This document shows, piece by piece, positions 1,921-64,000 of a DNA stretch of 64,000 nt. Within the stretch, counting starts at the first letter, position 1; the number at the start of each line of letters is the position of its first letter. The notes beneath the pieces were generated by a model. The model worked only from the letters and a program-made list of their open reading frames with translations. It had not been told where the DNA came from and searched no databases. The DNA is from a phage, in sequence record PZ019086.1, one strand, 5' to 3'. The position numbers and the translations under genes are program-made.

Positions 1921-2775
1921 TCACAATGAAGAAAATTCTTTAACTAAAGCCTGTAATGAAGCCTCTATTGGATATCCATTCTTAACTAACATTTTCCTAA
2001 ACATCACATGTTTAGGACGATTATATGATATCCACAATTCATACAATTTATCTTTATTATCCCAATGATAGCCTTTTCGTCGAGATGCTATATGAGCTTT
2101 TCTAATCTCCGGATTTTTCCAACTAGCGGCTACTGAATTTGATATAGCTATTTTATATTCAGGTTTTGATAAAGCAACACGAACAGCCTTTTGGTGTTTA
2201 ATTTTATTTTCTTCGTTATTAAACCATTCCCTTGAAGCCATTGAAATTTTTTGTTTTGTTTTAAAATTATTTAATCTTTCTTTGTTATCTTTCCTATTTT
2301 TTGCTACTGAAAAGTATTTTAATGCTCTTTCTCTAGCAGCATTTCTATTTTGTGGATTTGAATAATATTGTTGAAGCCTTTTTGATATTGTGTCACTTAC
2401 ATCTTGTTTTATAAAACTATATTCAGCAGCTATTAAATCAACTTCGGCTAAAGATAAATTTTTATATGTTTTTCCTGACATCATTCTATTTAAAGCATTT
2501 AGCATTTTTCCATTTTTACCTTTTGCTAATAAGAAATGTGCTTTAAAATGATTAAAATGACTTAAATTAACTAAATTCCATGTAGATTTTAAATATTCAG
2601 GAAATATTGATTTAGGAAGCACATGGTGTGCTTCCGTTTTACCTGGAGTTTTAACAGTTGAATTCATAGAAATAAAATTAATGTAAGACTTGGCGTCTTC
2701 TTCACTCAACGCTAATTTTTCAACTAATTCCTTTATTAAAAATTCATCATTAATGTCAAGTTTAAAATTCTTCAC
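1921..2775 (-). mobile_element. Freestanding HNH homing endonuclease (Mob-like) with C-terminal NUMOD-like repeats
   Basis: 284 aa; motif EAHHVLPKS...NLVNLSHFNHFKAH typical of HNH Mob proteins; basic repeated C-terminal segments; lies between genes 46 and 47. Confidence 0.55.
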
Positions 2776-15576: not shown

Positions 15577-16599
15577 TTACTTAATTAACTGTAAAGCTTG
15601 TTCAAGACGATCCAGGCGATTAACAGATTCTTCCCAAATCCTTTTAGCTTGCTCATATTCTTTCTGCGCTTTATTAGAAATTTCTAGAGCTTCTTTATAA
15701 GCTTTTTCTAATGCAATAACTTCTGGACGAATTTCTACCGGTTCAGGTGAATCGTCAAGACATTCCATTAGTTCCTCAAGGGTAGTTTCTTCTTTAGGAG
15801 TATTCACAATTTCTTCACATTTTTGTTGGTAAATTTCTTTATCAGTCGGTGAGTACGCACACTTTACTTCACGAAGACTAACTACAATTTTATATCCTTC
15901 CCAACCGCATATATTCTTAAAAGGATACGTATGAATATTTTCTACTGTTTCCATACAAAGTAGTGCAGTCTCTAATTGACGAGTTATAGTGCTAGCAATT
16001 GAGAAAAATTTATTAATATTCCTTTGGTTAGTTTCTGGTGTAAAAAATCCATAATTCACAAAAATAGATACTTTATTTTTATCAAGTTCATATTCTTTTA
16101 TGATAATCATATCAGAAGCCAAAGGATGAATTTGACGATAATCGCCATAACATAATTTAGAAGCTGATTTTAGAATCTGTCCTTTGAAAAGCCTGAAATT
16201 ACTAATCCAACGACGAGTAAAAATATTCTCAGGGTCTTCTTTATTATTAAGATGATAAGAATTAACATCACCGAACCAATTATATCCTACTACATCTTTG
16301 GTTCGTTTAATTTCTTTCCCAAAATTACCAAGAATATCTCGATTAACCAAATATGAAAGAAGACGAGACTCTTTAAAGGTTTTCTTGATAACATCTTTAT
16401 CTACACGGCTAGAAATTTTACGAATTTCATGAATAAATTTAACAGAAGAAACAATACTTGCATCAACACTATTGAGCCATTGATTGATAATAGAAATAAC
16501 GCTATTTTGGCCAAACATCGGTATAGCTTTATCATCAATAACGCTATTGAATGATTTGATATATTCGTTACGAGTCATATTAATCTCCTCAGATACCAC
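15577..16599 (-). CDS. Hypothetical protein, member 2 of the tandem paralog array
   Basis: 340 aa; N-terminus ...MTRNEYIKSF; C-terminal coiled coil. Confidence 0.6.
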   Translation of the reverse strand: MVSEEINMTRNEYIKSFNSVIDDKAIPMFGQNSVISIINQWLNSVDASIVSSVKFIHEIRKISSRVDKDVIKKTFKESRLLSYLVNRDILGNFGKEIKRTKDVVGYNWFGDVNSYHLNNKEDPENIFTRRWISNFRLFKGQILKSASKLCYGDYRQIHPLASDMIIIKEYELDKNKVSIFVNYGFFTPETNQRNINKFFSIASTITRQLETALLCMETVENIHTYPFKNICGWEGYKIVVSLREVKCAYSPTDKEIYQQKCEEIVNTPKEETTLEELMECLDDSPEPVEIRPEVIALEKAYKEALEISNKAQKEYEQAKRIWEESVNRLDRLEQALQLIK

Positions 16600-31892: not shown

Positions 31893-32471
31893 TTAATTAC
31901 CACGGGCCGCATTAGCAACGGCGTAAGCATACTGAACATTAGCGTCTTTAAATGTACCTTTAGAGGTATCTATTTCTGCCTTAAAGCCGCCTTTAGCCAT
32001 AACATCGGCGAATTCTTTACGGAAAGCCATTGCATCGAGACCTTTCCATGATGATTTATGCTTGGCAAATTCAAGACCTGCGAAGTTGACAGCTTTAGCC
32101 AATTTATTATCAATGACCCATTTACCGGCTTTAGGCACAAACTTCGGGCCTTTTTGTTTAGAGAACAGTTTTAAATTCCAGCGACGAAGATCACTGTCGG
32201 CTTTAACAAAAGCTGCGTCTAAGTTACTAGCAACAACATCTTCAATATGAGCAAATTTAAGTCCGTCAACTTCAATATTTAAATCGGTACGCCAGCGAAG
32301 TCCTTCCCAAGCGAAAGCTTTAAAATCGGAAGCTTTTGTAGCTAAGTATCGTTCAATAGGGGCTGTTTTAGGGTCAAAGCCGTTTCCACCACGATAGTTC
32401 CACTCGTCCTTATTAATGCCTTTGGCCTTTACTACAGAAGCTTCAGCAATAAATTCTTGATACGTTTTCAT
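31893..32471 (-). CDS. ipIII: Internal protein III-like (head-packaged, injected protein) with capsid-targeting leader
   Basis: 192 aa; N-terminus MKTYQEFIAEA (capsid-targeting sequence cleaved by the prohead protease). Confidence 0.75.
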   Translation of the reverse strand: MKTYQEFIAEASVVKAKGINKDEWNYRGGNGFDPKTAPIERYLATKASDFKAFAWEGLRWRTDLNIEVDGLKFAHIEDVVASNLDAAFVKADSDLRRWNLKLFSKQKGPKFVPKAGKWVIDNKLAKAVNFAGLEFAKHKSSWKGLDAMAFRKEFADVMAKGGFKAEIDTSKGTFKDANVQYAYAVANAARGN

Positions 32472-38344: not shown

Positions 38345-38420
38345 CTGGTCGAGGCAGTAGGGATCGAACCTACGACCTAGGACTTAGAAGGTCCTTGCTC
38401 TTCCTTCTGAGCTATGCCTC
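38345..38420 (-). tRNA. tRNA-Arg (anticodon UCU), CCA encoded
   Basis: Hand-folded cloverleaf; anticodon loop CTTCTAA; T-loop GGTTCGATCC. Confidence 0.8.
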
Positions 38421-38424
38421 GGAT

Positions 38425-38499
38425 TTGGCGGACGTGATAGGATTCGAACCTATAACCAATCGCTTAACAGGCGATCGCTCTGCCATTGAGCTACACATC
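38425..38499 (-). tRNA. tRNA-Asn (anticodon GUU), CCA encoded
   Basis: Acceptor GGATGTG/CACGTCC; anticodon stem ATCGC/GCGAT; loop CTGTTAA. Confidence 0.7.
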
Positions 38500-38503
38500 C
38501 AAA

Positions 38504-38590
38504 TTGGTGGGGAGTGATGGAGTCGAACCACCCGAGTCGCAATGACAATGGATTTACAGTCCACACCGCTACCTCTACGGGATAACTCCC
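38504..38590 (-). tRNA. tRNA-Tyr (anticodon GUA), long variable arm, CCA encoded
   Basis: Acceptor GGGGAGT/ACTCCCC; anticodon loop CTGTAAA; 87 nt. Confidence 0.7.
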
Positions 38591-38603
38591 CTTAATTCTT
38601 AAT

Positions 38604-38678
38604 TTGGTGGCCCTGGGTGGAATTGAACCACCATCTGGCGATTATGAGTCGCTTGCTTGAACCTTCCAGCTACAGGGC
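38604..38678 (-). tRNA. tRNA with anticodon CAU (Ile lysidine-type or elongator Met)
   Basis: Acceptor GGCCCTG/CAGGGCC; anticodon loop CTCATAA. Confidence 0.7.
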
Positions 38679-38679
38679 C

Positions 38680-38755
38680 TTGGTGCTGATTGACGGAATC
38701 GAACCGCCGACCTTCTCATTACAAGTGAGTTGCTCTACCTACTGAGCTAAATCAG
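38680..38755 (-). tRNA. tRNA-Thr (anticodon UGU)
   Basis: Acceptor GCTGATT/AATCAGC; anticodon loop CTTGTAA. Confidence 0.8.
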
Positions 38756-38760
38756 CAAAA

Positions 38761-38850
38761 CTGGCGGAGGCGATAGGATTCGAACCTATGAGTCGCTGGA
38801 GCGACTGCCGGTTTTCAAGACCGGTGCATTAAACCACTCTGCCACGCCTC
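38761..38850 (-). tRNA. tRNA-Ser (anticodon UGA), long variable arm
   Basis: Acceptor GGAGGCG/CGCCTCC; anticodon loop CTTGAAA; 90 nt. Confidence 0.8.
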
Positions 38851-38852
38851 CA

Positions 38853-38926
38853 GTCTCCGTGGCAGGATTTGAACCTGCGACATTCTGCTCCCAAAGCAGA
38901 CGCTCTACCAAACTGAGCTACACGGA
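38853..38926 (-). tRNA. tRNA-Pro (anticodon UGG), CCA not encoded
   Basis: Acceptor CTCCGTG/CACGGAG; anticodon loop TTTGGGA; the next tRNA follows immediately with no CCA. Confidence 0.75.
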
Positions 38927-38936
38927 GTAAATTAAA

Positions 38937-39010
<74 letters not shown>

Positions 39011-39015
39011 CAAAT

Positions 39016-39102
39016 TTGGTGCGAGAAGTGGGACTCGAACCCACAAGGAAATCATTCCGCAGCATTTTAAGTGCTGTGCCTTTACCAATTTGACCATTCT
39101 CG
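39016..39102 (-). tRNA. tRNA-Leu (anticodon UAA), long variable arm
   Basis: Acceptor GCGAGAA/TTCTCGC; anticodon loop CTTAAAA; 87 nt. Confidence 0.8.
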
Positions 39103-39103
39103 C

Positions 39104-39176
39104 GCTGGGAATAAAGGACTCGAACCTTTGCATCTAGCAGTCAAAGTGCTATGCCTTACCAACTTGGCTAATTCCC
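39104..39176 (-). tRNA. tRNA-Gln (anticodon UUG), CCA not encoded
   Basis: Acceptor TGGGAAT/ATTCCCA; anticodon loop CTTTGAC. Confidence 0.75.
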
Positions 39177-39265
39177 AATTATTAACAAAGGCTCTCAAAC
39201 AAGAACCCTTGATGATAGAGGGGGTATTAATCAGTGCGATATAAGTTAATAATAACACATAATTC

Positions 39266-39817
39266 TTAAAGCAAATCAATCATTTTAACAGTTGGCAAAA
39301 CGATTTCTTCTTCAATATAAGCGAATTCAACACATTCAACTACACGCAAGAAATCATAATCATAATATTCAGAAGCATGGCCAAGAATATCAATGAGACC
39401 TTCTGATACCAAATATCCATTCTCACGGAACAGGTCGAATACACGCGATTCGTCTTCTTCAGATTTATTACCAAGGTCGACTTCAATATCAAAGACCTTT
39501 TTAATGAATTCTGGATAAAGCTGGTCTGAGAACAGTCCTTCAACCAAGTATTCATAGATTAAAAGCGAGCAATCACTGAATAGTGTATTACCACAGTAAC
39601 GTTCAGCTTTAGTGCTAGAATGACGACTCTTAAATTTCTTCAAGAGATATTTAAACTGTTGGAGCTCATGCTCTTCTACACCAAATAATGTTTTGGTTTT
39701 ATAGTTGTCGCCGTCATTTTCCCAAGTAGTGACATCAATTACGTAACCTTTAGGAATTGTACTGCCTAAACAAATATTCATTTTCTCACCGTACCATATT
39801 AATGTAATTATATTCAA
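39266..39817 (-). CDS. Hypothetical acidic protein
   Basis: 183-aa ORF immediately upstream of the tRNA array. Confidence 0.5.
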   Translation of the reverse strand: MNIITLIWYGEKMNICLGSTIPKGYVIDVTTWENDGDNYKTKTLFGVEEHELQQFKYLLKKFKSRHSSTKAERYCGNTLFSDCSLLIYEYLVEGLFSDQLYPEFIKKVFDIEVDLGNKSEEDESRVFDLFRENGYLVSEGLIDILGHASEYYDYDFLRVVECVEFAYIEEEIVLPTVKMIDLL

Positions 39818-44467: not shown

Positions 44468-44475
44468 TATAAATA
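44468..44475 (+). promoter_or_regulatory. Late promoter box TATAAATA for gene 53
   Basis: Exact TATAAATA about 28 nt upstream of the gene 53 ATG. Confidence 0.6.
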
Positions 44476-44503: not shown

Positions 44504-45094
44504 ATGCTCTTTACATTTTTTGATCCGATTGAATATGCGGCCAAAACAGTGAATAAAAACGCGCCGACTATTCCTATGACAGATATTTTTAGAAACTATA
44601 AAGACTATTTCAAACGTGCTCTTGCGGGATACCGCTTACGCACTTATTATATCAAAGGTTCACCACGCCCGGAAGAATTAGCAAATGCTATATATGGAAA
44701 TCCACAGTTGTATTGGGTTTTATTGATGTGTAATGATAATTATGATCCGTATTATGGATGGATTACTTCGCAAGAAGCTGCTTATCAAGCATCTATACAA
44801 AAATACAAAAACGTAGGTGGAGACCAAATAGTATATCATGTGAATGAGAACGGTGAAAAATTTTATAATTTAATATCATACGATGATAATCCATATGTTT
44901 GGTATGACAAAGGCGATAAAGCTAGAAAATATCCTCAATATGAAGGAGCACTTGCTGCGGTCGATACGTATGAAGCTGCTGTTCTTGAAAATGAAAAACT
45001 TCGTCAAATAAAAATAATAGCAAAATCAGACATCAATTCATTTATGAACGACCTTATACGTATAATGGAGAAATCTTATGGAAATGATAAGTAA
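44504..45094 (+). CDS. 53: Baseplate wedge protein gp53
   Basis: 196 aa; first gene of the plus-strand late operon. Confidence 0.8.
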   Translation: MLFTFFDPIEYAAKTVNKNAPTIPMTDIFRNYKDYFKRALAGYRLRTYYIKGSPRPEELANAIYGNPQLYWVLLMCNDNYDPYYGWITSQEAAYQASIQKYKNVGGDQIVYHVNENGEKFYNLISYDDNPYVWYDKGDKARKYPQYEGALAAVDTYEAAVLENEKLRQIKIIAKSDINSFMNDLIRIMEKSYGNDK

Positions 45095-46850
45095 TAACCT
45101 TAATTGGTTTGTTGGTGTTGTTGAAGATAGAATGGACCCATTAAAATTAGGTCGCGTTCGTGTTCGTGTTGTTGGTCTGCATCCACCACAAAGAGCACAA
45201 GGTGATGTAATGGGTATTCCAACTGAAAAATTACCATGGATGTCAGTTATTCAACCTATAACTTCTGCAGCAATGTCTGGAATTGGAGGCTCCGTTACTG
45301 GTCCGGTAGAAGGAACTAGAGTTTATGGTCATTTTTTAGACAAATGGAAAACTAACGGAATTGTTCTTGGCACGTATGGTGGAATAGTTCGCGAAAAGCC
45401 TAATAGGCTTGAAGGATTTTCTGACCCAACTGGACAGTATCCTAGACGTCTAGGAAATGATACTAACGTATTAAACCAAGGCGGAGAAGTAGGATATGAT
45501 TCGTCTTCTAATATTATCCAAGATAGCAATCTAGACACTGCGATAAATCCCGATGATAGACCACTATCAGAAATTCCAACTGATGATAATCCAAATATGT
45601 CAATGGCTGAAATGCTTCGCCGTGATGAAGGATTAAGACTAAAAGTTTATTGGGATACTGAAGGATATCCGACAATTGGTATTGGTCATCTTATCATGAA
45701 GCAGCCAGTTCGTGATATGACTCAAATTAATAAAGTTTTATCAAAACAAGTTGGTCGTGAAATTACCGGAAATCCAGGTTCTATTACAATGGAAGAGGCG
45801 ACAGCTTTATTTGAACGCGATTTGGCTGATATGCAACGTGACATTAAATCACATTCTAAAGTTGGCCCAGTTTGGCAGGCAGTTAATCGTTCTCGTCAAA
45901 TGGCATTAGAAAACATGGCATTTCAGATGGGTGTTGGTGGTGTAGCTAAATTTAACACAATGTTAACTGCTATGTTAGCAGGAGATTGGGAAAAAGCATA
46001 TAAAGCTGGTCGTGATTCATTGTGGTATCAACAAACAAAAGGCCGTGCATCCCGTGTTACCATGATTATTCTTACGGGAAATTTGGAATCATATGGTGTT
46101 GAAGTGAAAACACCGGCTAGGTCTTTGTCAGCAATGGCTGCTGCTGTAGCGAAGTCTTCTGATCCAGCTGACCCTCCTATTCCTAATGATTCGAGAATTT
46201 TATTTAAAGAACCTGTTTCTTCATATAAAGGTGAATATCCATATGTTCACACAATGGAAACTGAAAGCGGTCATATTCAGGAATTTGATGATACCCCTGG
46301 GCAAGAACGATACAGATTAGTTCATCCGACTGGAACATATGAGGAAGTATCACCGTCAGGAAGAAGAACAAGAAAAACTGTCGATAATTTGTATGATATA
46401 ACAAATGCTGATGGTAATTTTTTGGTAGCCGGTGATAAAAAGACTAACGTCGGTGGATCAGAAATTTATTACAACATGGATAATCGTCTTCACCAAATAG
46501 ATGGAAGCAATACAATATTTGTGCGTGGCGACGAAACGAAAACTGTTGAAGGTAATGGAACTATCCTAGTTAAAGGTAATGTTAAAGTAGTTATTCAAGG
46601 AACAGCAGATATAACTGTTGAACAGGAAGCATACATAACTGTTGAAAAAGACACGACTGTTAATGTTAACCAAAACGCAGACATAAGTGTTAAAAATAAA
46701 GCAACTGTTAATGCTGAAAATATGGATGTCAACGTTGAGCAAGATTTAAATTTTTCAGCGACAAATATTAATTTAAGTGCATCTAATACTGTTCATATGG
46801 ATGGCGGGGTTCTTTCTAAAGTATCAGGTGGAAACGTACAGGTTGGTTAA
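45078..46850 (+). CDS. 5: Baseplate hub subunit with tail lysozyme domain gp5
   Basis: 590 aa; OB-fold N-terminus; central lysozyme domain MAEMLRRDEGLRLKVYWDTEGYPTIGIGHLI; C-terminal beta-helix repeats. Confidence 0.9.
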   Translation: MEMISNNLNWFVGVVEDRMDPLKLGRVRVRVVGLHPPQRAQGDVMGIPTEKLPWMSVIQPITSAAMSGIGGSVTGPVEGTRVYGHFLDKWKTNGIVLGTYGGIVREKPNRLEGFSDPTGQYPRRLGNDTNVLNQGGEVGYDSSSNIIQDSNLDTAINPDDRPLSEIPTDDNPNMSMAEMLRRDEGLRLKVYWDTEGYPTIGIGHLIMKQPVRDMTQINKVLSKQVGREITGNPGSITMEEATALFERDLADMQRDIKSHSKVGPVWQAVNRSRQMALENMAFQMGVGGVAKFNTMLTAMLAGDWEKAYKAGRDSLWYQQTKGRASRVTMIILTGNLESYGVEVKTPARSLSAMAAAVAKSSDPADPPIPNDSRILFKEPVSSYKGEYPYVHTMETESGHIQEFDDTPGQERYRLVHPTGTYEEVSPSGRRTRKTVDNLYDITNADGNFLVAGDKKTNVGGSEIYYNMDNRLHQIDGSNTIFVRGDETKTVEGNGTILVKGNVKVVIQGTADITVEQEAYITVEKDTTVNVNQNADISVKNKATVNAENMDVNVEQDLNFSATNINLSASNTVHMDGGVLSKVSGGNVQVG

Positions 46851-46851
46851 T

Positions 46852-48888
46852 ATGAATTATAACGAAATTGTTGATGAATTAGTTGATACCATACAATCAG
46901 CTTGTTCAATTATTCCCGAAGGTTATTATAGACGAGTTAAATGGGAATTATACAATCCCAATAAAGAAATGATTCAACCCGATAATGGGGTTGAATGGGA
47001 CACTGAAATTATTAAATTAGATACCCATCTTTACACCGAAAATCCATTTGGTCATTCTTCTGATACATTTACTGAATCATCTGATGGAGAAACCCAAACT
47101 GGTGTTTTTTGTCATAAAATCGGCGTGTATTTTCCAACTCAAACTGCGTTAGAAGATTACGTTGAACAAATTGGTGCAACTTTACTTCCAGGTAATACTT
47201 GGTATGGTGCTGATTTATCGAAACGTGAATTTTTTAAAACTGAAATTGAATATGATATGTATCGCATTGAAAATCGCGGAGGTACATGGCATCATACGGG
47301 TCCTAGAATAGATGCTAGGACAATGATCGGTGTTAACAATGACTATACAATGTATGTTAACTTTAACGGTTTAGGAGATTATCGAAGAGCATATTTAAAA
47401 TATTATGAAGATAAACCATGCACATATGTCGGTTTAACACTAAATTTAAATATAGATACATCAATTCCCGGTATTCCTTATTCACCTCCATCAATTATTG
47501 GAGAGCTTCCACTTAATGCAATTTCATGCGTTAATTTTACTGCCCAATTTCCATACAATGGCTTAACAACTGCAATTATTGAGGCTTGGAACACCTCAAG
47601 AGATTCATTTAAACTATATTGGGATATGTTGCCTGGTATGCCGGCAATTAGCGGAAGTGATTTTGAAAAATATTTTAATTCGGCATATACACATTTATCT
47701 GTAGCAATGGAAGAGCTTGGAAATTCGGCAATTGCCATGTGTCAATATGTTCAGCAACAAGCCTTTATGGTTTTTAAAAATTCTGTTTCACAAGTTCTAA
47801 ATATTGTCGGTGGCGGATGGGATTTATTAAAAAGTTTTTTACCTAAAATAACAATAATGGGCATATCTATTGATATTGAAGATTTATGTACATCAACAGA
47901 TGGTGTTCAAAAATTGAAGGAAACCTTTGAAAATTTTAATCTGGAAGATACTATTAGTTCAATTTATTCTGCAATGGGTTCTGCATATGACTATTCTATA
48001 GAACGCGTTAAAATGTATTCGCGGGATTTAATTGATGCAATAACAGATTTATATGATTGGGCCTGGTCAAAATTAATGATGGCCGGTGTCGCTTTATCAA
48101 AATTATGTGTTGATTTAGCACAAATCTGGAGCATGCCACCAATTATTCCAAATCCAGTGTGGTCTGTTATCACTTTAGTGAAGGAAATGATGAAACAAAT
48201 TCCTCCATTAGATATGATTATGTCAGGTAATTTTCCTGGATTTACTGCTTCTGATGTATATCAGATGGTTATGTCTATCGTATCTGAAAAAATTAAACAA
48301 GTTTATACTGAAATAGAATCATTAAAAACCCAAGCATTGGATGTATGGAATGAAATTAAACTAAAAACACAGGAATATAAAAAGCAAACGATTGAATTTA
48401 AACAATATTTATCAGGAATGGCTGAAAAGGTTGAAGATGAAATAACTATAGCAAAAAAGAAAGCGTTACAAGAAGCTGAATCCGCTTTAAATGTTTTAAA
48501 GGATAAATATAACAGTATTAAAGACTTGATAAAAAATAAACAGATTTCTGTGTCTGATGTATTAGATTTAGCTTTGACTGAATTTCGAAAAATTCCATTA
48601 ATTTCACAAATGGAATCATTATTATCTTTAGCTGGAGCATCTATCGATGATATAATGAAAGTATATGAAAATAGCGTTACTAAAGCAAAATCATTATATC
48701 ACGAATTCACCGATGGCGCTCGGTCAATGAAAGATCTATGCAAATCATTATACAATCAAATTTCGACTTTATGTTTGAGTAAGGTTGTGCAATGGATTAA
48801 TAAAATGCTTGGAATATTTGGATTAAGTATTACATTTCCAACAGTATCAATATGCATTCCATGCTTAAAAACTCCTATGAGGAATTAA
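46852..48888 (+). CDS. Large uncharacterised protein encoded between gene 5 and gene 6; N-terminal Trp/Tyr-rich region, C-terminal helical/coiled-coil half, hydrophobic C-terminal tail
   Basis: Uninterrupted 2.0-kb ORF in AT-rich DNA; ATG one base after the gene 5 stop (TAAtATG); its stop sits 1 nt before the gene 6 ATG. Confidence 0.7.
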   Translation: MNYNEIVDELVDTIQSACSIIPEGYYRRVKWELYNPNKEMIQPDNGVEWDTEIIKLDTHLYTENPFGHSSDTFTESSDGETQTGVFCHKIGVYFPTQTALEDYVEQIGATLLPGNTWYGADLSKREFFKTEIEYDMYRIENRGGTWHHTGPRIDARTMIGVNNDYTMYVNFNGLGDYRRAYLKYYEDKPCTYVGLTLNLNIDTSIPGIPYSPPSIIGELPLNAISCVNFTAQFPYNGLTTAIIEAWNTSRDSFKLYWDMLPGMPAISGSDFEKYFNSAYTHLSVAMEELGNSAIAMCQYVQQQAFMVFKNSVSQVLNIVGGGWDLLKSFLPKITIMGISIDIEDLCTSTDGVQKLKETFENFNLEDTISSIYSAMGSAYDYSIERVKMYSRDLIDAITDLYDWAWSKLMMAGVALSKLCVDLAQIWSMPPIIPNPVWSVITLVKEMMKQIPPLDMIMSGNFPGFTASDVYQMVMSIVSEKIKQVYTEIESLKTQALDVWNEIKLKTQEYKKQTIEFKQYLSGMAEKVEDEITIAKKKALQEAESALNVLKDKYNSIKDLIKNKQISVSDVLDLALTEFRKIPLISQMESLLSLAGASIDDIMKVYENSVTKAKSLYHEFTDGARSMKDLCKSLYNQISTLCLSKVVQWINKMLGIFGLSITFPTVSICIPCLKTPMRN

Positions 48889-48889
48889 A

Positions 48890-50869
48890 ATGACAACTCC
48901 TGTAAATTATCAATTAACAAGAACAGCAAATGCTATTCCCGAGATATTCGTCGGGGGTACATTTGCTGAAATAAAACAAAACCTCATTGAATGGCTTAAT
49001 GGTCAAAATGAATTTTTGGATTATGATTTTGAAGGCTCAAGATTAAACGTTCTGTGCGACCTTTTGGCTTATAATACATTATACATTCAGCAGTTTGGTA
49101 ATGCTGCCGTGTATGAAAGCTTTATGCGTACTGCTAATTTGCGTAGTTCAGTAGTTCAAGCGGCACAAGATAATGGATATTTACCTACTTCAAAATCAGC
49201 TGCTCAAACTGAAATTATGCTAACTTGTACAGATGCATTGAATAGAAATTACATTACTATTCCTCGTGGTACTCGCTTTTTAGCATATGCAAAGGATACT
49301 TCCGTTAATCCTTACAACTTTGTATCTACCGAAGATGTTATTGCTATTCGCGATAAAAATAACCAATATTTTCCGCGTTTAAAATTGGCCCAGGGACGTA
49401 TAGTAAGAACTGAAATCATTTATGATAAATTAACGCCTATTATCATTTATGATAAAAATATTGATAGAAACCAGGTTAAATTATATGTTGATGGAGCGGA
49501 ATGGATTAACTGGACGAGAAAGTCAATGGTTCATGCTGGTTCAACATCAACGATTTACTATATGCGTGAAACTATTGATGGAAACACTGAATTCTATTTT
49601 GGTGAAGGTGAAATTTCTGTTAATGCGGCAGAAGGAGCATTGACTGCTAATTATATTGGGGGTCTTAAACCTACCCAGAACTCTACGATTGTTATTGAGT
49701 ACATCAGTACTAACGGTGCAGATGCGAATGGCGCAGTCGGATTTTCATATGCAGATACATTAACAAATATAACTGTCATCAACATTAATGAAAATCCAAA
49801 CGATGACCCAGATTTTGTTGGGGCAGATGGCGGCGGTGATCCAGAAGATATTGAACGTATTCGCGAATTGGGTACTATTAAACGCGAAACCCAGCAACGC
49901 TGTGTAACTGCGACTGACTATGATACATTCGTTTCAGAGAGATTTGGTTCTATTATTCAAGCAGTTCAGACTTTCACTGATTCTACTAAACCTGGTTATG
50001 CATTTATTGCTGCTAAACCTAAATCAGGGTTGTATTTAACTACTGTACAGCGCGAAGATATTAAAAATTATCTCAAAGACTATAATTTAGCTCCTATTAC
50101 ACCGTCAATTATTTCTCCTAATTATCTTTTTATTAAGACTAATTTAAAAGTCACATATGCTTTAAATAAGCTGCAAGAATCCGAACAGTGGCTCGAAGGT
50201 CAAATAATTGATAAAATTGATCGTTATTATACCGAAGATGTAGAAATTTTTAACTCATCTTTCGCTAAATCTAAGATGTTGACATATGTAGATGATGCAG
50301 ATCATTCTATCATTGGTTCATCAGCGACAATTCAAATTGTTCGTGAAGTACAAAACTTCTATAAAACGCCTGAAGCAGGTATTAAATACAATAATCAAAT
50401 AAAAGATCGTTCTATGGAATCTAATACGTTTTCATTTAATTCTGGACGAAAGGTTGTAAATCCTGATACTGGTTTAGAAGAAGATGTATTATATGACGTT
50501 CGCATAGTATCAACAGACCGAGATTCTAAAGGAATTGGTAAAGTTATTATTGGTCCATTTGCTTCTGGCGATGTTACAGAAAATGAAAACATTCAGCCGT
50601 ATACAGGCAACGATTTTAACAAATTAGCAAATTCTGATGGACGCGACAAATACTATGTTATCGGTGAAATAAATTATCCAGCTGATGTGATTTATTGGAA
50701 TATCGCTAAAATTAATTTAACATCTGAAAAATTTGAAGTTCAGACTATTGAATTATATTCTGACCCAACCGATGATGTTATCTTTACTCGCGATGGTTCG
50801 CTGATTGTATTTGAAAATGACTTACGTCCACAATACTTAACTATCGATTTGGAGCCTATATCACAATGA
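48890..50869 (+). CDS. 6: Baseplate wedge protein gp6
   Basis: 659 aa; GAGGAA Shine-Dalgarno; size and order match T4. Confidence 0.9.
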   Translation: MTTPVNYQLTRTANAIPEIFVGGTFAEIKQNLIEWLNGQNEFLDYDFEGSRLNVLCDLLAYNTLYIQQFGNAAVYESFMRTANLRSSVVQAAQDNGYLPTSKSAAQTEIMLTCTDALNRNYITIPRGTRFLAYAKDTSVNPYNFVSTEDVIAIRDKNNQYFPRLKLAQGRIVRTEIIYDKLTPIIIYDKNIDRNQVKLYVDGAEWINWTRKSMVHAGSTSTIYYMRETIDGNTEFYFGEGEISVNAAEGALTANYIGGLKPTQNSTIVIEYISTNGADANGAVGFSYADTLTNITVININENPNDDPDFVGADGGGDPEDIERIRELGTIKRETQQRCVTATDYDTFVSERFGSIIQAVQTFTDSTKPGYAFIAAKPKSGLYLTTVQREDIKNYLKDYNLAPITPSIISPNYLFIKTNLKVTYALNKLQESEQWLEGQIIDKIDRYYTEDVEIFNSSFAKSKMLTYVDDADHSIIGSSATIQIVREVQNFYKTPEAGIKYNNQIKDRSMESNTFSFNSGRKVVNPDTGLEEDVLYDVRIVSTDRDSKGIGKVIIGPFASGDVTENENIQPYTGNDFNKLANSDGRDKYYVIGEINYPADVIYWNIAKINLTSEKFEVQTIELYSDPTDDVIFTRDGSLIVFENDLRPQYLTIDLEPISQ

Positions 50870-53964: not shown

Positions 53965-54961
53965 TTCAAGTGTTATCTATCGTGCGATAGTTACTTCAAA
54001 ATTTAGAACAGAAAAAATGTTGAATTTTTATAATTCAATTGGAAGTGGTCCGGATAAAAACACTATCTTTATCACATTTGGAAGATCAGAACCATGGTCA
54101 TCAAATGAAAATGAGGTGGGCTTTGCCCCACCTTATCCCACCGATTCTGTATTAGGTGTAACTGACATGTGGACTCATATGATGGGAACTGTAAAGGTTC
54201 TTCCATCTATGCTTGATGCAGTTATTCCTCGTAGAGATTGGGGAGATACTAGATATCCGGATCCATACACATTTAAAATTAACGATATTGTAGTATGTAA
54301 CTCAGCTCCTTACAATGCTACTGAATCAGGCGCAGGCTGGTTAGTATATCGCTGTTTAGATGTTCCTGACACAGGAATGTGTTCAATTGAGTCTTTAACT
54401 AATAAGGATGAATGCCTTAAGTTAGGTGGAAAATGGACTCCTTCTGTTAGGTCAATGACTCCTCCTGAAGGTCGAGGAGACGCGGAAGGAACAATCGAAC
54501 CTGGAGACGGGTATGTATGGGAATATCTTTTTGAGATTCCGCCTGATGTATCTATAAATAGATGCACGAATGAATATATCGTAGTTCCTTGGCCGGAAGA
54601 ATTAAAAGAAGACCCGACTAGATGGGGGTATGAAGATAATCTCACTTGGCAACAAGATGATTTTGGATTAATTTACCGTGTTAAGGCAAATACTATCCGT
54701 TTTAAAGCATATTTAGATTCAGTTTATTTTCCTGAAGCTGCACTGCCGGGAAATAAAGGATTTAGGCAAATATCAATAATCACGAATCCTCTTGAAGCTA
54801 AAGCTCATCCAAATGACCCAAACGTTAAAGCTGAAAAGGATTATTATGATCCGGAAGATTTAATGAGGCATTCGGGCGAAATGATTTATATGGAAAATAG
54901 GCCACCTATTATCATGGCAATGGATCAAACAGAAGAAATCAATATTCTGTTTACATTTTAA
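53957..54961 (+). CDS. 8: Baseplate wedge protein gp8
   Basis: 334 aa, equal to T4 gp8. Confidence 0.9.
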   Translation: MNDSSVIYRAIVTSKFRTEKMLNFYNSIGSGPDKNTIFITFGRSEPWSSNENEVGFAPPYPTDSVLGVTDMWTHMMGTVKVLPSMLDAVIPRRDWGDTRYPDPYTFKINDIVVCNSAPYNATESGAGWLVYRCLDVPDTGMCSIESLTNKDECLKLGGKWTPSVRSMTPPEGRGDAEGTIEPGDGYVWEYLFEIPPDVSINRCTNEYIVVPWPEELKEDPTRWGYEDNLTWQQDDFGLIYRVKANTIRFKAYLDSVYFPEAALPGNKGFRQISIITNPLEAKAHPNDPNVKAEKDYYDPEDLMRHSGEMIYMENRPPIIMAMDQTEEINILFTF

Positions 54962-57699: not shown

Positions 57700-58358
57700 T
57701 GAGTTTACTTAATAATAAAGCGGGAGTTATTTCCCGCTTAGCCGATTTTCTTGGTTTTAGACCTAAAACTGGTGACATCGATGTAATGAATCGTCAATCA
57801 GTTGGGTCAGTGACAATTTCTCAATTAGCGAAAGGATTTTATGAACCAAACGTAGAATCAGCTATTAATGACGTTCATAATTTTTCTATAAAAGACGTCG
57901 GTACAATTATTACTAATAAAACCGGTGTTTCTCCTGAGGGTGTTTCTCAAACTGATTACTGGACATTTTCGGGAACTGTAACAGATGATTCGCTTCCTCC
58001 TGGTTCTCCTGTTACTGTGTTAGTATTTGGTCTTCCAGTTTCAGCAACAACTGGAATGACAGCTATTGAGTTTGTCGCCAAAGTTCGTGTTGCTCTGCAA
58101 GAAGCTATTGCGTCATTTACTGCTATCAATTCATATAAAGACCATCCAACCGATGGTAGTAAATTAGAAGTTACTTATTTAGATAATCAAAAACATGTAT
58201 TAAGCACATATTCTACATATGGAATAACTATTTCCCAAGAAATTATTTCAGAATCTAAGCCTGGGTATGGCACATGGAATTTGCTTGGTGCACAAACTGT
58301 AACTTTAGATAATCAGCAAACTCCAATAGTACTTTATCATTTTGAGAGAACAGCATGA
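57699..58358 (+). CDS. 11: Baseplate protein gp11 (short tail fibre attachment)
   Basis: Start set at the ATG overlapping the gene 10 stop (TAATG), giving 219 aa as in T4; the listed ORF begins 18 nt upstream. Confidence 0.85.
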
Positions 58359-59938
58359 GTAATAATACATACCAACACGTTTCTAATGAATCTCGCTATG
58401 TAAAATTTGATCCAACTGGCACAAATTTTCCAGCAGAGATTACTGATGTTCAGGCTGCTATAGCAGCCATTTCTCCTGCTGGTGTAAATGGAGTTCCTGA
58501 CGCATCATCAACAACAAAGGGAATTTTATTTCTTGCCACTGAACAGGAAGTTATCGATGGAACTAATAATACCAAAGCAGTTACACCAGCAACGTTGGCA
58601 ACAAGATTATCTTATCCAAACGCAACTGAAACTGTTTACGGATTAACAAGATATTCAACCAATGATGAAGCAATTGCCGGAGTTAATAATGAATCTTCTA
58701 TAACTCCTGCTAAATTTACTGTTGCCCTTAATAATGCCTTTGAAACTCGTGTTTCAACTGAATCATCAAATGGAGTTATTAAAATTTCATCTCTACCGCA
58801 AGCATTAGCTGGCGCAGATGATACTACTGCGATGACTCCATTAAAAACACAACAGTTAGCTATTAAACTAATTGCACAAATCGCTCCTTCTGAAACCACA
58901 GCTACCGAATCGGACCAAGGTGTTGTTCAATTAGCGACAGTAGCTCAAGTTCGTCAAGGAACCTTAAGAGAAGGCTATGCAATTTCTCCTTATACGTTAA
59001 TGAATTCTACTGCTACTGAAGAATATAAAGGCGTAATTAAATTAGGAACACAATCAGAAGTTAACTCGAATAATGCTTCTGTTGCGGTTACTGGCGCAAC
59101 TCTTAATGGTCGTGGTTCTACAACGTCAATGAGAGGCGTAGTTAAATTAACTACAACCGCCGGCTCACAGAGTGGAGGCGATGCTTCATCAGCACTAGCT
59201 TGGAATGCTGACGTTATCCACCAAAGAGGTGGTCAAACGATTAATGGAACACTTCGCATTAATAATACGCTCACAATAGCTTCAGGTGGAGCAAATATTA
59301 CCGGAACAGTTAACATGACTGGTGGTTATATTCAAGGTAAGCGTGTTGTAACACAGAATGAAATAGATAGAACTATTCCTGTTGGAGCTATTATGATGTG
59401 GGCGGCAGATAGTCTTCCTAGTGATGCTTGGCGCTTCTGTCATGGTGGAACTGTTTCTGCGTCAGATTGCCCATTATATGCTTCTAGAATTGGAACAAGA
59501 TACGGTGGAAGCTCATCAAATCCTGGATTGCCTGACATGCGTGGTCTTTTTGTTCGTGGCTCTGGTCGCGGCTCTCACTTAACAAATCCAAATGTTAATG
59601 GTAATGACCAATTTGGTAAGCCTAGATTAGGTGTAGGTTGTACCGGTGGATATGTTGGTGAAGTACAAAAACAGCAGATGTCTTATCATAAACACGCTGG
59701 CGGATTTGGTGAATGGGATGATTCTGGAGCATTCGGTAATACCCGTAGATCAAATTTTGTTGGTACACGTAAAGGACTTGACTGGGATAACCGTTCATAC
59801 TTCACCAATGATGGATATGAAATTGACCCAGCATCACAACGAAATTCTAGATACACACTAAATCGTCCTGAGTTAATTGGAAATGAAACACGTCCATGGA
59901 ACATTTCTTTAAACTACATAATTAAGGTAAAAGAATGA
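58355..59938 (+). CDS. 12: Short tail fibre protein gp12
   Basis: 527 aa; Gly/Thr/Ser/Ala-rich fibrous repeats. Confidence 0.9.
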
Positions 59939-61398
59939 CAGATATTGTACTGAATGACTTACCATTCGTTGACGGCCCTCCTGCAGAGGGCCAGAGCCGC
60001 ATTTCCTGGATTAAAAACGGCGAAGAAATATTAGGAGCTGACACACAGTATGGAAGTGAAGGTTCAATGAATAGACCTACAGTTTCTGTACTAAGAAATG
60101 TTGAAGTTCTTGATAAAAACATTGGAATACTCAAAACATCTTTAGAATCCGCGAATAGTGATATTAAAACAATTCAGGGCATCTTAGATGTATCTGGTGA
60201 TATTGAAGCTTTGGCCCAAATAAGTATCAATAAAAAGGATATTTCTGACCTTAAAACGCTTACCAGTGAACATACAGAAATATTAAATGGAACTAATAAC
60301 ACGGTTGATAGCATTCTTGCTGATATTGGTCCATTTAACTCCGAGGCCAACTCTGTATACAGAACGATCAGAAATGATTTACTGTGGATAAAGCGTGAAC
60401 TTGGACAATACACGGGTCAAGATATTAATGGTCTTCCTGTTGTAGGAAATCCTAGCACAGGAATGAAGCATCGCATTATTAATAATACTGATGTCATTAC
60501 TTCACAGGGAATACGTTTAAGCGAATTAGAAACAAAATTTATTGAATCTGATGTAGGTTCTTTAACTATTGAAGTTGGTAATCTTCGTGAAGAGCTTGGG
60601 CCAAAACCACCATCGTTTTCACAAACCGTCTACAGCCGCTTAAATGAAATTGACACTAAACAGACAACAGTTGAGTCTGACATTAGTGCTATTAAGACCT
60701 CAATAGGATATCCAGGAAATAATTCGATTATCACGAGTGTTAATACAAACACTGATAATATTGCATCTATTAATTTAGAGCTAAATCAAAGTGGAGGTAT
60801 TAAACAGCGTTTAACCGTTATTGAAACTTCTATTGGTTCAGATGATATTCCTTCGAGTATTAAAGGCCAAATCAAAGATAATACAACTTCAATCGAAGCT
60901 CTAAATGGAATCGTCGGTGAAAACACTTCATCCGGTTTAAGAGCGAATGTTTCGTGGTTAAACCAAATTGTTGGAACTGATTCTAGCGGTGGACAACCTT
61001 CTCCTCCTGGGTCTCTTTTAAACCGAGTTTCTACAATTGAAACTTCTGTTTCAGGCTTGAATAACGATGTTCAAAACCTACAAGTAGAGATTGGTAATAA
61101 CAGCGCAGGAATTAAAGGGCAAGTTGTAGCGTTAAATACTTTAGTAAATGGAACTAATCCAAATGGTTCAACTGTCGAAGAACGTGGATTAACCAATTCA
61201 ATAAAAGCTAACGAAACCAACATTGCATCAGTTACACAAGAAGTGAATACAGCCAAAGGTAGTATATCTTCTCTGCAAGGCGATGTTCAAGCTCTACAAG
61301 AAGCAGGTTATATTCCTGAAGCTCCAAAAGATGGTCAAGCTTACGTTCGTAAAGACGGCGAATGGGTATTACTTTCTACCTTTTTATCACCAGCATAA
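59935..61398 (+). CDS. wac: Fibritin (whisker/collar protein)
   Basis: 487 aa; segmented coiled coil; ends with foldon-like [27 protein letters not shown]. Confidence 0.9.
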
Positions 61399-61401
61399 CA
61401 T

Positions 61402-61429
61402 GGGGCCGCAAGGCCCCAAAGGATTTTTA
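61402..61429 (+). terminator. Stem-loop after wac
   Basis: ggggccgcaaggcccc followed by aaaggattttt. Confidence 0.45.
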
Positions 61430-61430
61430 A

Positions 61431-63132
<1,702 letters not shown>

Positions 63133-63173
63133 TAAATATTATAAACTAATTAAAGCCCAGATTAGGAGAAATC

Positions 63174-63992
63174 ATGTTTGGTTATTTTTATAATTCGTCT
63201 TTTAGACGATATGCTACCTTGATGGGCGATTTGTTTTCAAATATCCAAATCAAACGTCAGTTAGAATCTGGTGATAAGTTTATACGTGTTCCTATTACGT
63301 ATGCATCAAAGGAACACTTCATGATGAAATTAAATAAATGGACATCGATAAATTCACAAGAAGATGTAGCTAAAGTTGAAACTATTCTACCTCGTATAAA
63401 TTTACATTTAGTTGATTTTAGCTATAATGCTCCATTTAAAACAAACATTTTAAATCAGAATTTACTGCAAAAAGGCGCAACTTCTGTAGTATCACAGTAT
63501 AATCCATCTCCTATTAAAATGATTTATGAATTGAGTATCTTTACTCGCTACGAAGATGATATGTTTCAAATAGTTGAACAGATTCTTCCATATTTTCAAC
63601 CTCATTTTAATACAACTATGTACGAACAGTTTGGAAATGATATTCCATTTAAAAGGGATATTAAAATTGTACTGATGTCTGCTGCTATAGACGAATCTAT
63701 AGATGGAGATAATTTATCTCGTCGTAGAATTGAATGGTCACTAACATTTGAAGTAAACGGATGGATGTATCCTCCAGTAGATGATGCAGAAGGATTAATT
63801 CGTACTACTTATACAGATTTTCACGCCAATACAAGAGATTTGCCTGATGGCGAAGGTGTTTTTGAATCTGTCGATAGCGAAGTTGTTCCTCGAGATATTA
63901 ACCCAGAAGACTGGGATGGAACAGTAAAACAAACTTTCACTAGCAATGTAAATAGACCAACACCGCCAGAACCTCCTGGCCCAAGAACATAG
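63174..63992 (+). CDS. 15: Tail sheath stabiliser / tail completion protein gp15
   Basis: 272 aa, equal to T4 gp15. Confidence 0.85.
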   Translation: MFGYFYNSSFRRYATLMGDLFSNIQIKRQLESGDKFIRVPITYASKEHFMMKLNKWTSINSQEDVAKVETILPRINLHLVDFSYNAPFKTNILNQNLLQKGATSVVSQYNPSPIKMIYELSIFTRYEDDMFQIVEQILPYFQPHFNTTMYEQFGNDIPFKRDIKIVLMSAAIDESIDGDNLSRRRIEWSLTFEVNGWMYPPVDDAEGLIRTTYTDFHANTRDLPDGEGVFESVDSEVVPRDINPEDWDGTVKQTFTSNVNRPTPPEPPGPRT

Positions 63993-64000
63993 AGGTTATT

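What the first reader, a model, noticed from the sequence alone, without database searches (positions are those of the whole stretch)
46852..48888. Unrecognised 678-aa ORF embedded in the conserved baseplate operon between gene 5 and gene 6
Seen in sequence: a 2.0-kb uninterrupted plus-strand ORF fills the whole interval between the gp5 stop (start context TAAtATG) and the gp6 start (its stop sits 1 nt before the gp6 ATG), so it is co-transcribed and translationally coupled with late structural genes. From memory of T4, this interval there holds only small ORFs, including the PAAR-type spike-tip gene 5.4; no PAAR-sized ORF and no GIY-YIG or HNH motif is visible here. The protein has a Trp/Tyr-rich N-terminal half, a long helical/coiled-coil C-terminal half and a hydrophobic C-terminal tail, and matches no family I recognise. 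Inference: a novel baseplate- or spike-associated component, or an accessory cargo gene expressed with the virion.
Basis: partly seen in the sequence, partly recalled or inferred. Interest (0 to 1): 0.78.

Follow-up and report, generated by a model that had tools for sequence, protein, structure and literature searches.

The report
Large non-PAAR spike-tip gene cassette
The 678-aa gene between baseplate genes 5 and 6 is real and belongs to the phage RB43 ORF205w family, which probably supplies a large, non-PAAR tip for the tail spike; here it sits in a T4-type genome as a swapped-in cassette together with the matching end of the spike protein.

Summary
ORF 46852-48888 (+, 678 aa) fills the gene 5 to gene 6 interval with 1-nt gaps on both sides.

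It is not an orphan. It matches PHROG 5296 ('unknown function') full length. Of 216 phage genomes with a match, 214 carry a full-length copy. In all eight syntenic loci inspected it lies between gp5 and the downstream wedge genes. All copies are annotated 'hypothetical', apart from a few automated 'tape measure' labels. It is 42% identical to RB43 ORF205w. A 2025 preprint proposes that protein as a unique, non-PAAR spike tip, based on 17.7 Å cryo-EM.

New findings here:
- The window is about 96% identical to T4 except for a 2295-bp cassette. The cassette holds the last 88 codons of gene 5 plus the ORF, and replaces T4's gp5 end, 5.1, segC, 5.3 and 5.4.
- This gp5 tail type and the ORF have near-identical distributions (203 vs 216 records, same organism breakdown).
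- A complete relative (PD112) has no gp5.4, and its hub proteins are 96-99% identical to T4's.
- The cassette is about 99.8% identical among phages whose flanks have dS ≈ 0.14, which points to recent lateral spread.
- AlphaFold2 gives a confident model (pLDDT 87.6). The N-terminal domain has no PDB neighbour.

Verdict: a new member of a recently flagged family. Virion location and mechanism remain inferred.

The parts
44468..44475 (+). T4-type late promoter motif TATAAATA, 29 nt upstream of gene 53. The next + strand copy is at 54553, so genes 53-5-ORF-6-7-8 are probably one late transcript.
   Evidence: One search gives the positions. The motif count in the whole window is not above chance, so the assignment rests on position and on the known T4 late-promoter consensus. 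One search finds no + strand terminator-like site between gene 5 and gene 6.
45078..46584 (+). T4-type part of gene 5 (codons 1-502: OB domain, lysozyme, start of the beta-helix).
   Evidence: 96.6% DNA identity to T4 up to 46584. The protein is 99.2% identical to T4 gp5 but only 63-66% to Bp7/SP18. Pfam domains.
46585..48879 (+). Replacement cassette of 2295 bp with no DNA homology to T4. It replaces 1605 bp of T4: the last 73 codons of gene 5, plus 5.1, segC, 5.3 and 5.4.
   Evidence: blastn breakpoints. T4 annotation. About 72% DNA identity to Bp7/SP18 across the cassette. Four or five mismatches in about 2.5 kb against PD112 and SG1, compared with 5-20 per 250 bp in the flanks.
46585..46850 (+). 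Variant gp5 beta-helix end (residues 503-590, ending ...SGGNVQVG). This is the presumed docking platform for the tip protein.
   Evidence: 30% identity to T4, 89.8% to Bp7/SP18, 57% to Pm5461 and 41% to RB43. The last 53 aa occur in 203 phage records with the same organism distribution as the ORF. The most distant homologue's neighbour ends ...FTGGTVSVG.
46852..48888 (+). The 678-aa ORF, a member of the RB43 ORF205w / PHROG 5296 family and the putative non-PAAR spike-tip protein.
46852..47703 (+). N-terminal alpha/beta domain (aa 1-284). Invariant motifs include NDWYGADLSK and MYxxENxGG. It is the faster-evolving part of the protein.
47704..48816 (+). Helical bundle region (aa 285-655). It has long hairpins (helices 466-520 and 529-566) and a conserved core (389-465 and 622-660, 90-92% identical to Bp7).
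48802..48870 (+). Conserved hydrophobic C-terminal segment (aa 651-673). Residues 664-673 are modelled as a beta-strand.
   Evidence: Hydropathy of 1.6-1.76, both in this sequence and in the family mean. DSSP strand at 664-673. Strand 224-232 is lost when the N-terminal domain is folded alone, which suggests the two strands pair (inference).
48880..50869 (+). Resumption of T4 homology at the gene 6 ribosome-binding site, followed by gene 6 (baseplate wedge).
   Evidence: 96.0% DNA identity from 48880 onwards. gp6 is 99.4% identical to T4 gp6. Pfam gp6 domains.

Best explanation
The ORF encodes the spike-tip protein of a second, non-PAAR type of T4-family central spike (the RB43 ORF205w family).

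What is shown:
- It is a conserved, intact late-operon gene that replaces genes 5.1-5.4.
- It always accompanies a particular gp5 C-terminal beta-helix end (...GG(N/T)V(Q/S)VG).
- The unit 'gp5 end + ORF' behaves as one exchangeable 2.3-kb cassette. In this phage lineage it has been recombined into an otherwise T4-identical baseplate, and it has recently spread among diverged T4-type genomes.

What is inferred: probably one copy of the protein, since the monomer model is compact, caps the flat end of the gp5 trimer where gp5.4 sits in T4. It would ride at the front of the tail tube during sheath contraction and be the first phage protein pushed through the outer membrane into the periplasm.

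More speculative: the variable N-terminal domain and the long amphipathic helical bundle with conserved hydrophobic segments may act on the envelope, by membrane perturbation or by contact with the inner membrane, rather than merely sharpening the needle.
For: Position and coupling: 1-nt gaps to gp5 and gp6, under one late promoter.

Family and synteny: PHROG 5296 full length, E=0. 216 phage records match, 214 of them full length. The order gp53-gp5-ORF-gp6-gp7 holds in RB43, Bp7, SP18, Pm5461 and GuL6. A 29%-identical metagenomic homologue also follows a gp5 end.

Cassette structure: the breakpoints are at gene 5 codon 502 and at the gp6 ribosome-binding site. gp5 residues 1-502 are 99.2% T4-like, while 503-590 are 30% T4-like and 89.8% Bp7-like.

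Co-occurrence: this gp5 tail type is found in 203 records with the same organism breakdown as the ORF.

No alternative tip: T4 gp5.4 finds 1422 phage records down to 25% identity, but nothing in the complete PD112 genome or in the window.

Nothing else had to change: PD112 gp25, 26, 27, 28, 29, 48, 51 and 54 are 95.6-99.2% identical to T4's.

Recent lateral spread: dS is 0.002-0.007 within the ORF against 0.14-0.15 in flanking gp5-N and gp6.

Literature (PMC12407873): RB43 lacks 5.4, its 17.7 Å baseplate map shows a larger tip density, and the authors propose orf205w as the tip.
Against: No direct evidence places this protein, or any family member, in the virion.
- The only virion proteome I found for a possibly related phage (Morganella MP1, PMC5384007) lists nothing numbered between gp141 (gp2) and gp147 (gp6 homologue), so gp5 and any ORF homologue went undetected. 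I did not verify that MP1 encodes the ORF.
- The preprint's authors could not produce an orf205w-gp5-beta complex. Their map is low resolution and C6-symmetrised, and their wording is 'possibly encoded'.
- A 77-kDa cap is hard to reconcile with a 'sharpening' role.
- There is no PAAR-like fold, no detectable metal-site motif and no pseudo-threefold repeat, so how a monomer would dock on a trimer is unknown.
- Genome-wide exclusivity with gp5.4 was checked in only one complete genome here.
Confidence: 0.65

Rival explanations
1. It is a non-virion assembly factor: a chaperone or folding clamp needed only for the variant gp5 beta-helix end. It would be made late and released before or at baseplate completion.
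For: This would explain the strict co-inheritance with the gp5 tail and the late, coupled expression. I found no proteomic detection. The RB43 co-expression attempt did not give a stable complex.
Against: It leaves the spike without any tip protein, because there is no gp5.4. It also leaves the extra RB43 tip density unexplained. 678 aa with a confident, compact two-part fold is large for a dedicated chaperone of an 88-residue segment.
Confidence: 0.12
2. It is an ejected or tape-measure-like protein carried inside the tube or hub and injected with the DNA. Some automated annotations call it 'tail length tape measure'.
For: There are weak PHROG hits to tape-measure families (E 1e-5 to 1e-4). 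Weak profile hits fall on the apolipoprotein-like helical parts of PhageMin_Tail/TMP_3 proteins. It has hydrophobic segments.
Against: The phage keeps its own gp29 tape measure, 97.5% identical to T4's. No TMP domain is found. The similarity is about 20% identity and compositional. Linkage to the gp5 C-terminus, rather than to gp29/gp48/gp54, argues for the outside of the spike.
Confidence: 0.08
3. It is an accessory or selfish cargo gene with no structural role, for example an anti-exclusion or host-takeover factor. It would occupy a recombination hot spot that in T4 holds the homing endonuclease segC.
For: The near-identical cassette between diverged flanks resembles the footprint of homing or of strongly selected accessory genes. 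The interval is variable in T4-like phages.
Against: There is no nuclease or other catalytic domain. The gene is retained at the same position, from 99% down to 29% identity, in all eight loci inspected across several genera. It is coupled to a specific change in a structural protein's terminus, which a free-standing cargo gene would not need.
Confidence: 0.1
4. It is not a real gene, that is, a fortuitous open frame or an assembly artefact.
For: None found.
Against: Of 216 phage records with a match, 214 cover at least 80% of the ORF. There are 41 invariant columns across 58 sequences. The AlphaFold2 model is confident (pLDDT 87.6).
Confidence: 0.01

Closest known systems
RB43 ORF205w (putative 'unique' spike tip; Mattenberger et al., bioRxiv 2025, PMC12407873)
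   Same: It is an orthologue: 42% identity over 99% of the length. Both lie between gp5 and gp6 and show the same split into an alpha/beta N-terminal part and an all-helical remainder. Both have a gp5 partner ending ...GGTVQVG / ...GGNVQVG.
   Different: Here the gene sits in a Tequatrovirus (T4-type) backbone as a chimeric cassette, not in a Pseudotevenvirus. The sequence is closer to the Dhakavirus/Gaprivervirus versions (72%). With a 58-sequence alignment the AlphaFold2 model is confident (pLDDT 87.6), whereas the preprint reports low confidence.
T4 gp5.4 (PAAR-repeat spike tip, PDB 4KU0)
   Same: Same genomic slot immediately upstream of gene 6. Presumed same site of action, on the blunt end of the gp5 beta-helix. 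The two look like alternatives: T4 gp5.4 has no match in the window or in the one complete cassette genome searched (PD112), and the gene 5-6 interval has no room for it in the other cassette loci read.
   Different: 678 aa against 97 aa. No PAAR HMM hit, no structural match and no sequence similarity. It needs a different gp5 end.
Extended ('evolved') PAAR and VgrG proteins of type VI secretion systems, which carry effector domains on the spike tip
   Same: The concept is the same: a large extra domain is delivered on the tip of a contractile-injection spike, with modular exchange of the tip together with its adaptor.
   Different: There is no PAAR or VgrG-effector domain and no toxin domain was recognised. 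An effector function is purely hypothetical here.
Fused apex domains of P2 gpV / phi92 gp138 spikes (HxH iron site)
   Same: They are an alternative, non-PAAR solution for finishing a spike.
   Different: Those are short C-terminal domains of the spike protein itself. Here the tip is a separate 77-kDa polypeptide, and gp5 has no C-terminal HxH (alignment).
Phage tape measure proteins (the label some pipelines give this family)
   Same: Long amphipathic helices and hydrophobic stretches. Weak profile hits.
   Different: No TMP domain. A separate gp29 is present. The genomic linkage is different.

Membership tests
RB43 ORF205w / PHROG 5296 family | Full-length sequence homology | tested here: met
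   PHROG 5296 with E=0 over residues 1-673. 42% identity to RB43 over 99% of the length and 72% to Bp7/SP18. SP18's orthologue is annotated 'similar to RB43ORF205w'.
RB43 ORF205w / PHROG 5296 family | Located directly after gene 5 and before the wedge genes, replacing 5.1-5.4 | tested here: met
RB43 ORF205w / PHROG 5296 family | Partnered with the variant gp5 beta-helix end (...GG(N/T)V(Q/S)VG) | tested here: met
   (203 vs 216 records, same organism distribution).
RB43 ORF205w / PHROG 5296 family | Genome lacks a gp5.4/PAAR orthologue | tested here: met
   No tblastn hit in the complete PD112 genome or in the window, with sensitivity shown. RB43/RB16/Lw1 are covered by PMC12407873. Other genera were not checked genome-wide.
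RB43 ORF205w / PHROG 5296 family | Protein forms the density at the spike tip of the virion | not testable with these tools
   There is only low-resolution cryo-EM of RB43 in the literature. I found no informative proteomics.
PAAR-repeat spike tips (Pfam PF05488; T4 gp5.4) | PAAR repeat domain detectable by profile | tested here: not met
   No Pfam hit at E<=0.1. No similarity to gp5.4.
PAAR-repeat spike tips (Pfam PF05488; T4 gp5.4) | Small conical beta-structure with pseudo-threefold symmetry | tested here: not met
PAAR-repeat spike tips (Pfam PF05488; T4 gp5.4) | Buried His/Cys metal site | tested here: inconclusive
   C18 and C190 are invariant and C226 and C668 nearly so.
PAAR-repeat spike tips (Pfam PF05488; T4 gp5.4) | Binds the blunt end of the spike beta-helix | not testable with these tools
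The claim is inferred from co-inheritance only.
Tail tape measure proteins | TMP domain (PhageMin_Tail, TMP_3, or T4 gp29-like) and being the phage's length determinant | tested here: not met
   No such Pfam domain. Only weak, compositional hits. A T4-type gp29 is present in PD112.
Homing endonucleases (seg/mob; T4 segC occupies this interval) | GIY-YIG, HNH or LAGLIDADG nuclease domain | tested here: not met
   No Pfam, NCBIfam or PADLOC hit.
Alpha-helical pore-forming toxins / translocators (ClyA-Hbl-YaxAB, IpaB/SipB) | Specific structural or sequence similarity beyond a generic helical hairpin | tested here: inconclusive

The most novel reading that the evidence does not exclude
The 2.3-kb unit (gp5 beta-helix end plus this protein) is a portable 'penetration module' that T4-family phages exchange. 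In this reading its 77-kDa tip is not a passive sharpener but an active device: an N-terminal domain of apparently new fold, plus an amphipathic helical bundle with conserved hydrophobic segments, delivered into the periplasm. There it would perturb or engage the membranes, for example by starting the DNA conduit, or by bypassing envelope defences or the superinfection exclusion of PAAR-tipped competitors. That advantage would explain its recent sweep through diverged T4-type genomes.
Probability: 0.2. Interest if true: 0.8.

Novelty: new member of a known kind. Interest (0 to 1): 0.5.

Why it matters
The spike tip is the first phage part to breach the cell envelope. In T4 the PAAR tip decides whether certain LPS mutants can be infected. 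A second, much larger and structurally unrelated tip type is used by about 200 sequenced phages, including many Klebsiella, Enterobacter, Cronobacter and Proteus phages of therapeutic interest. It shows that the PAAR solution is not universal in T4-like phages.

The natural chimeras found here carry a T4 baseplate that is 96-100% identical, with only the gp5 end and the tip swapped. This gives two things:
- genetic evidence that the two parts form one functional unit;
- a ready experimental system in the best-understood phage background for asking what a large tip does.

Tried and rejected
Function by sequence:
- Pfam, NCBIfam and PADLOC gave nothing meaningful.
- A PDB profile search gave only coiled-coil noise; the best hit was Hbl-B at E=0.013, followed by influenza HA2 at about 0.25.

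Function by structure:
- Foldseek against PDB found nothing.

Distant relatives or informative fusions:
- A profile search of 1.84 billion representatives found only the compact family (13 hits at E<=1e-10).
- It also found compositional matches to apolipoprotein-like regions of tape measures and of a 2863-aa repeat protein.
- No gp5 fusion and no PAAR fusion was found.

Other checks:
- Pseudo-threefold or internal repeats: none by hhalign on alignment segments.
- Transmembrane anchor: only the C-terminal segment reaches a borderline hydropathy, and it is modelled as a beta-strand inside the fold. I do not call it a membrane anchor.

Virion proteomics:
- The Morganella MP1 table lacks both gp5 and any homologue of this ORF.
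- The ValerieMcCarty phages are Jiaodavirus, the PAAR type.
- The vB_EcRAM-01, KP15/KP27 and phiEap-3 papers contain no mass spectrometry.
- The JS98 paper (PMC532421) is not held.

Not possible with the tools: complex prediction of gp5 end plus ORF (single-chain predictions only, restricted inputs), and inspection of model coordinates.
Full report
OBSERVATION. Gene 5 (45078-46850) ends with TAA at 46848-46850. One base later, ATG 46852 opens a 678-codon frame that ends with TAA at 48886-48888. One base after that, gene 6 starts at 48890. The longer GTG-initiated version listed mechanically (46777, 703 aa) is not supported, because all homologues start at the MNY methionine. Pfam identifies the neighbours as gp53, gp5 (OB, lysozyme and Gp5_C domains) and gp6. 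A T4-type late promoter motif (TATAAATA) lies 29 nt upstream of gene 53. The next one on this strand is at 54553, and no + strand terminator-like site separates genes 5 and 6. Co-transcription and translational coupling are therefore plausible. The promoter call rests on position and consensus only, because the motif count in the window is at chance level.

T4 COMPARISON AND COMPOSITION. The T4 record confirms that the same interval there holds 5.1, segC, 5.3 and the PAAR gene 5.4. The compositional description also holds. The N-terminal part is Tyr-rich, residues 285-655 are helical in the model, and a hydrophobic segment spans 651-673.

WHAT IT IS. The ORF has no Pfam, NCBIfam or PADLOC family, but it is not an orphan. 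It matches PHROG 5296 ('unknown function') end to end. tblastn finds it in 216 phage records, 214 of them full length:
- 99.3-99.7% identity in seven T4-type phages (SG1, PD112, G8, JEP6, F26, BYEP01, sutha);
- 72% in Dhakavirus and Gaprivervirus (Bp7, WG01, SP18);
- 60% in KM16;
- 55-56% in Proteus Bragavirus;
- 46% in Cronobacter S13;
- 40-42% in Pseudotevenvirus (RB43, RB16) and Slopekvirus (KP15 and many Klebsiella phages).
Almost all copies are annotated 'hypothetical protein'; a few automated annotations say 'tape measure'. In every locus inspected the order is gp53-gp5-ORF-gp6-gp7. SP18's record states similarity to RB43ORF205w. A profile search of 1.84 billion representative proteins recovers only this compact family, with 13 hits at E<=1e-10. 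The most distant full-length member (29% identity) again lies directly after a gp5 C-terminus and before gp25-like, gp6, gp7 and gp8 genes.

LITERATURE. A bioRxiv preprint from the Belin and Leiman laboratories (PMC12407873) makes the following points:
- RB43, RB16 and Lw1 lack gene 5.4.
- The 5.1-5.4 locus is occupied by orf205w, about 690 aa. Residues 1-220 are a mix of helix and strand, and the rest is helical.
- A 17.7 Å C6-symmetrised baseplate map of RB43 shows a larger tip than T4's.
- The authors' attempt to produce a complex with the gp5 beta-helix failed, and their AlphaFold model had low confidence.
The window's ORF is an orthologue of that protein.

NEW COMPARATIVE EVIDENCE: THE CASSETTE. 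The window is a T4-type (Tequatrovirus) genome. It is 96.6% identical in DNA to T4 up to 46584 (gene 5 codon 502) and 96.0% identical again from 48880 (the gene 6 ribosome-binding site). The 2295 bp in between have no homology to T4. The replaced T4 segment (1605 bp) comprises the last 73 codons of gene 5 plus 5.1, segC, 5.3 and 5.4.
- At protein level, gp5 residues 1-502 are 99.2% identical to T4 but 63-66% to Bp7/SP18. Residues 503-590 are 30% identical to T4 but 89.8% to Bp7/SP18. gp53 and gp6 are 100% and 99.4% T4-like. The crossover lies in the conserved ...LVKGNV beta-helix repeat.
- All ORF-bearing phages share a gp5 end of the form ...GG(N/T)V(Q/S)VG, while T4 ends ...GSRIDIG.

NEW COMPARATIVE EVIDENCE: DISTRIBUTION. 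The last 53 residues of this gp5 type occur in 203 phage records, against 216 for the ORF, and the organism breakdown is almost identical. The counts (gp5 tail / ORF) are Klebsiella 103/113, Escherichia 27/27, Enterobacter 20/20, Cronobacter 18/18, Citrobacter 12/13 and Proteus 7/7. In the records compared, the gp5 tail lies immediately upstream of the ORF.
- T4 gp5.4 detects 1422 phage records down to 25% identity. It has no match in the complete genome of PD112 (best E 3.4) or in the window.
- PD112's other hub and tube-initiation proteins (gp25, 26, 27, 28, 29, 48, 51, 54) are 95.6-99.2% identical to T4's.
- Exchanging a PAAR tip for this protein therefore required only the gp5 end and the ORF. 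Together they form one functional and heritable module.

RECENT MOBILITY. Between the window and PD112 or SG1, the ORF differs at only 4 nucleotides (dS 0.002-0.005; 0.007 between PD112 and SG1). The flanking gp5 N-terminal part and gp6 have dS 0.14-0.15. The near-identical tract (about 46491/46617 to about 49002) coincides with the cassette plus no more than about 125 bp on each side. Purifying selection cannot erase synonymous differences. The cassette must therefore have moved recently between diverged T4-type backbones by recombination in the conserved flanks. No close donor is sampled: the nearest non-Tequatrovirus versions are 72% identical in DNA.

STRUCTURE. With a 58-sequence alignment, AlphaFold2 gives a confident single-chain model (mean pLDDT 87.6, pTM 0.78). 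It has three parts:
- an alpha/beta N-terminal domain of about 280 residues;
- a helical bundle with hairpins up to 55 residues long;
- a C-terminal hydrophobic beta-strand (664-673).

CONSERVATION PATTERN. Conservation is uneven. The helical core (389-465 and 622-660) is 90-92% identical to Bp7. The N-terminal domain (58-72%) and the long hairpin (57-71%) evolve faster. Invariant motifs include NDWYGADLSK, MYxxENxGG, WSMPPxxPNP and SGNFPGFT, plus C18 and C190.

MECHANISM. The following are shown: the gene is real, conserved and in the late operon; it is an alternative to gp5.4; it is inherited with a matching gp5 end; and it is compatible with an unchanged T4 baseplate. It is inferred, with roughly two-in-three confidence, that the protein caps the gp5 beta-helix and is driven through the outer membrane at sheath contraction, as gp5.4 is in T4. 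It is speculative, at about one in five, that the large size, amphipathic helices and conserved hydrophobic segments reflect an active role in the envelope. Such a role might include membrane perturbation, starting the DNA conduit, or evading envelope-based exclusion, and could explain why the module is spreading.

RIVALS. Three alternatives remain possible:
- a dedicated assembly factor for the variant gp5 end;
- an ejected, tape-measure-like protein;
- a non-structural cargo gene at a recombination hot spot.
The tape-measure label is the weakest. A T4-type gp29 is present, no TMP domain is found, and the similarity is compositional. No nuclease motif supports a homing element.

LIMITS. No proteomic or high-resolution structural evidence places the protein in the virion, and my literature searches for such data found none. 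Genome-wide absence of gp5.4 was verified here in one complete genome only. Complex prediction and inspection of model coordinates were not possible with the tools.

VERDICT. The protein belongs to an already catalogued family whose role as a non-PAAR spike tip was proposed in 2025. The added value here has four parts: the natural T4-backbone chimera, the near one-to-one linkage with the gp5 end, the evidence of recent lateral spread, and a confident fold model with an N-terminal domain of no known fold.

Noticed in passing
window 38346-39177 (- strand): A cluster of ten tRNA genes: Arg-tct, Asn-gtt, Tyr-gta, Met/Ile-cat, Thr-tgt, Ser-tga, Pro-tgg, Gly-tcc, Leu-taa and Gln-ttg. From my own knowledge T4 carries eight, so tRNA-Asn and tRNA-Tyr appear to be extra in this phage.
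   Followed up: no
window 1921-2772 (-), 15577-16596 (-), 31893-32468 (-), 39266-39814 (-): ORFs of 283, 339, 191 and 182 aa lie in segments that do not align to the close relative PD112 by megablast. They have no Pfam hit. They look like lineage-specific insertions of unknown function in the early/middle gene region.
   Followed up: partly
window 46491-49002 compared with L001 (SG1) and L008-L011 (PD112): The cassette is about 99.8% identical among three phages whose adjacent genes differ at 5-20 sites per 250 bp (dS about 0.14). This is a sharp island of identity marking recent recombinational transfer.
   Followed up: yes
phage record NC_055712.1 (Escherichia phage phT4A), 101438-102904: This is one of only two records where the homologue covers less than 80% of the ORF (residues 190-673). 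It may be a truncated or frameshifted copy, or a sequencing error.
   Followed up: no
window 59151-59873 (3' part of gene 12, 58355-59938): This stretch, in the receptor-binding end of the short tail fibre gene gp12 (Pfam domains), is not covered by the megablast alignment to PD112. Identity then drops to 90% over 59873-64000. This suggests a second exchanged host-contact module in the same baseplate operon.
   Followed up: no
L008 21945-22403 (PD112 gp28): PD112's gp28 is annotated as 152 aa against 177 aa in T4, although the two are 98% identical over the shared part. This is probably a start-codon annotation difference rather than biology.
   Followed up: no
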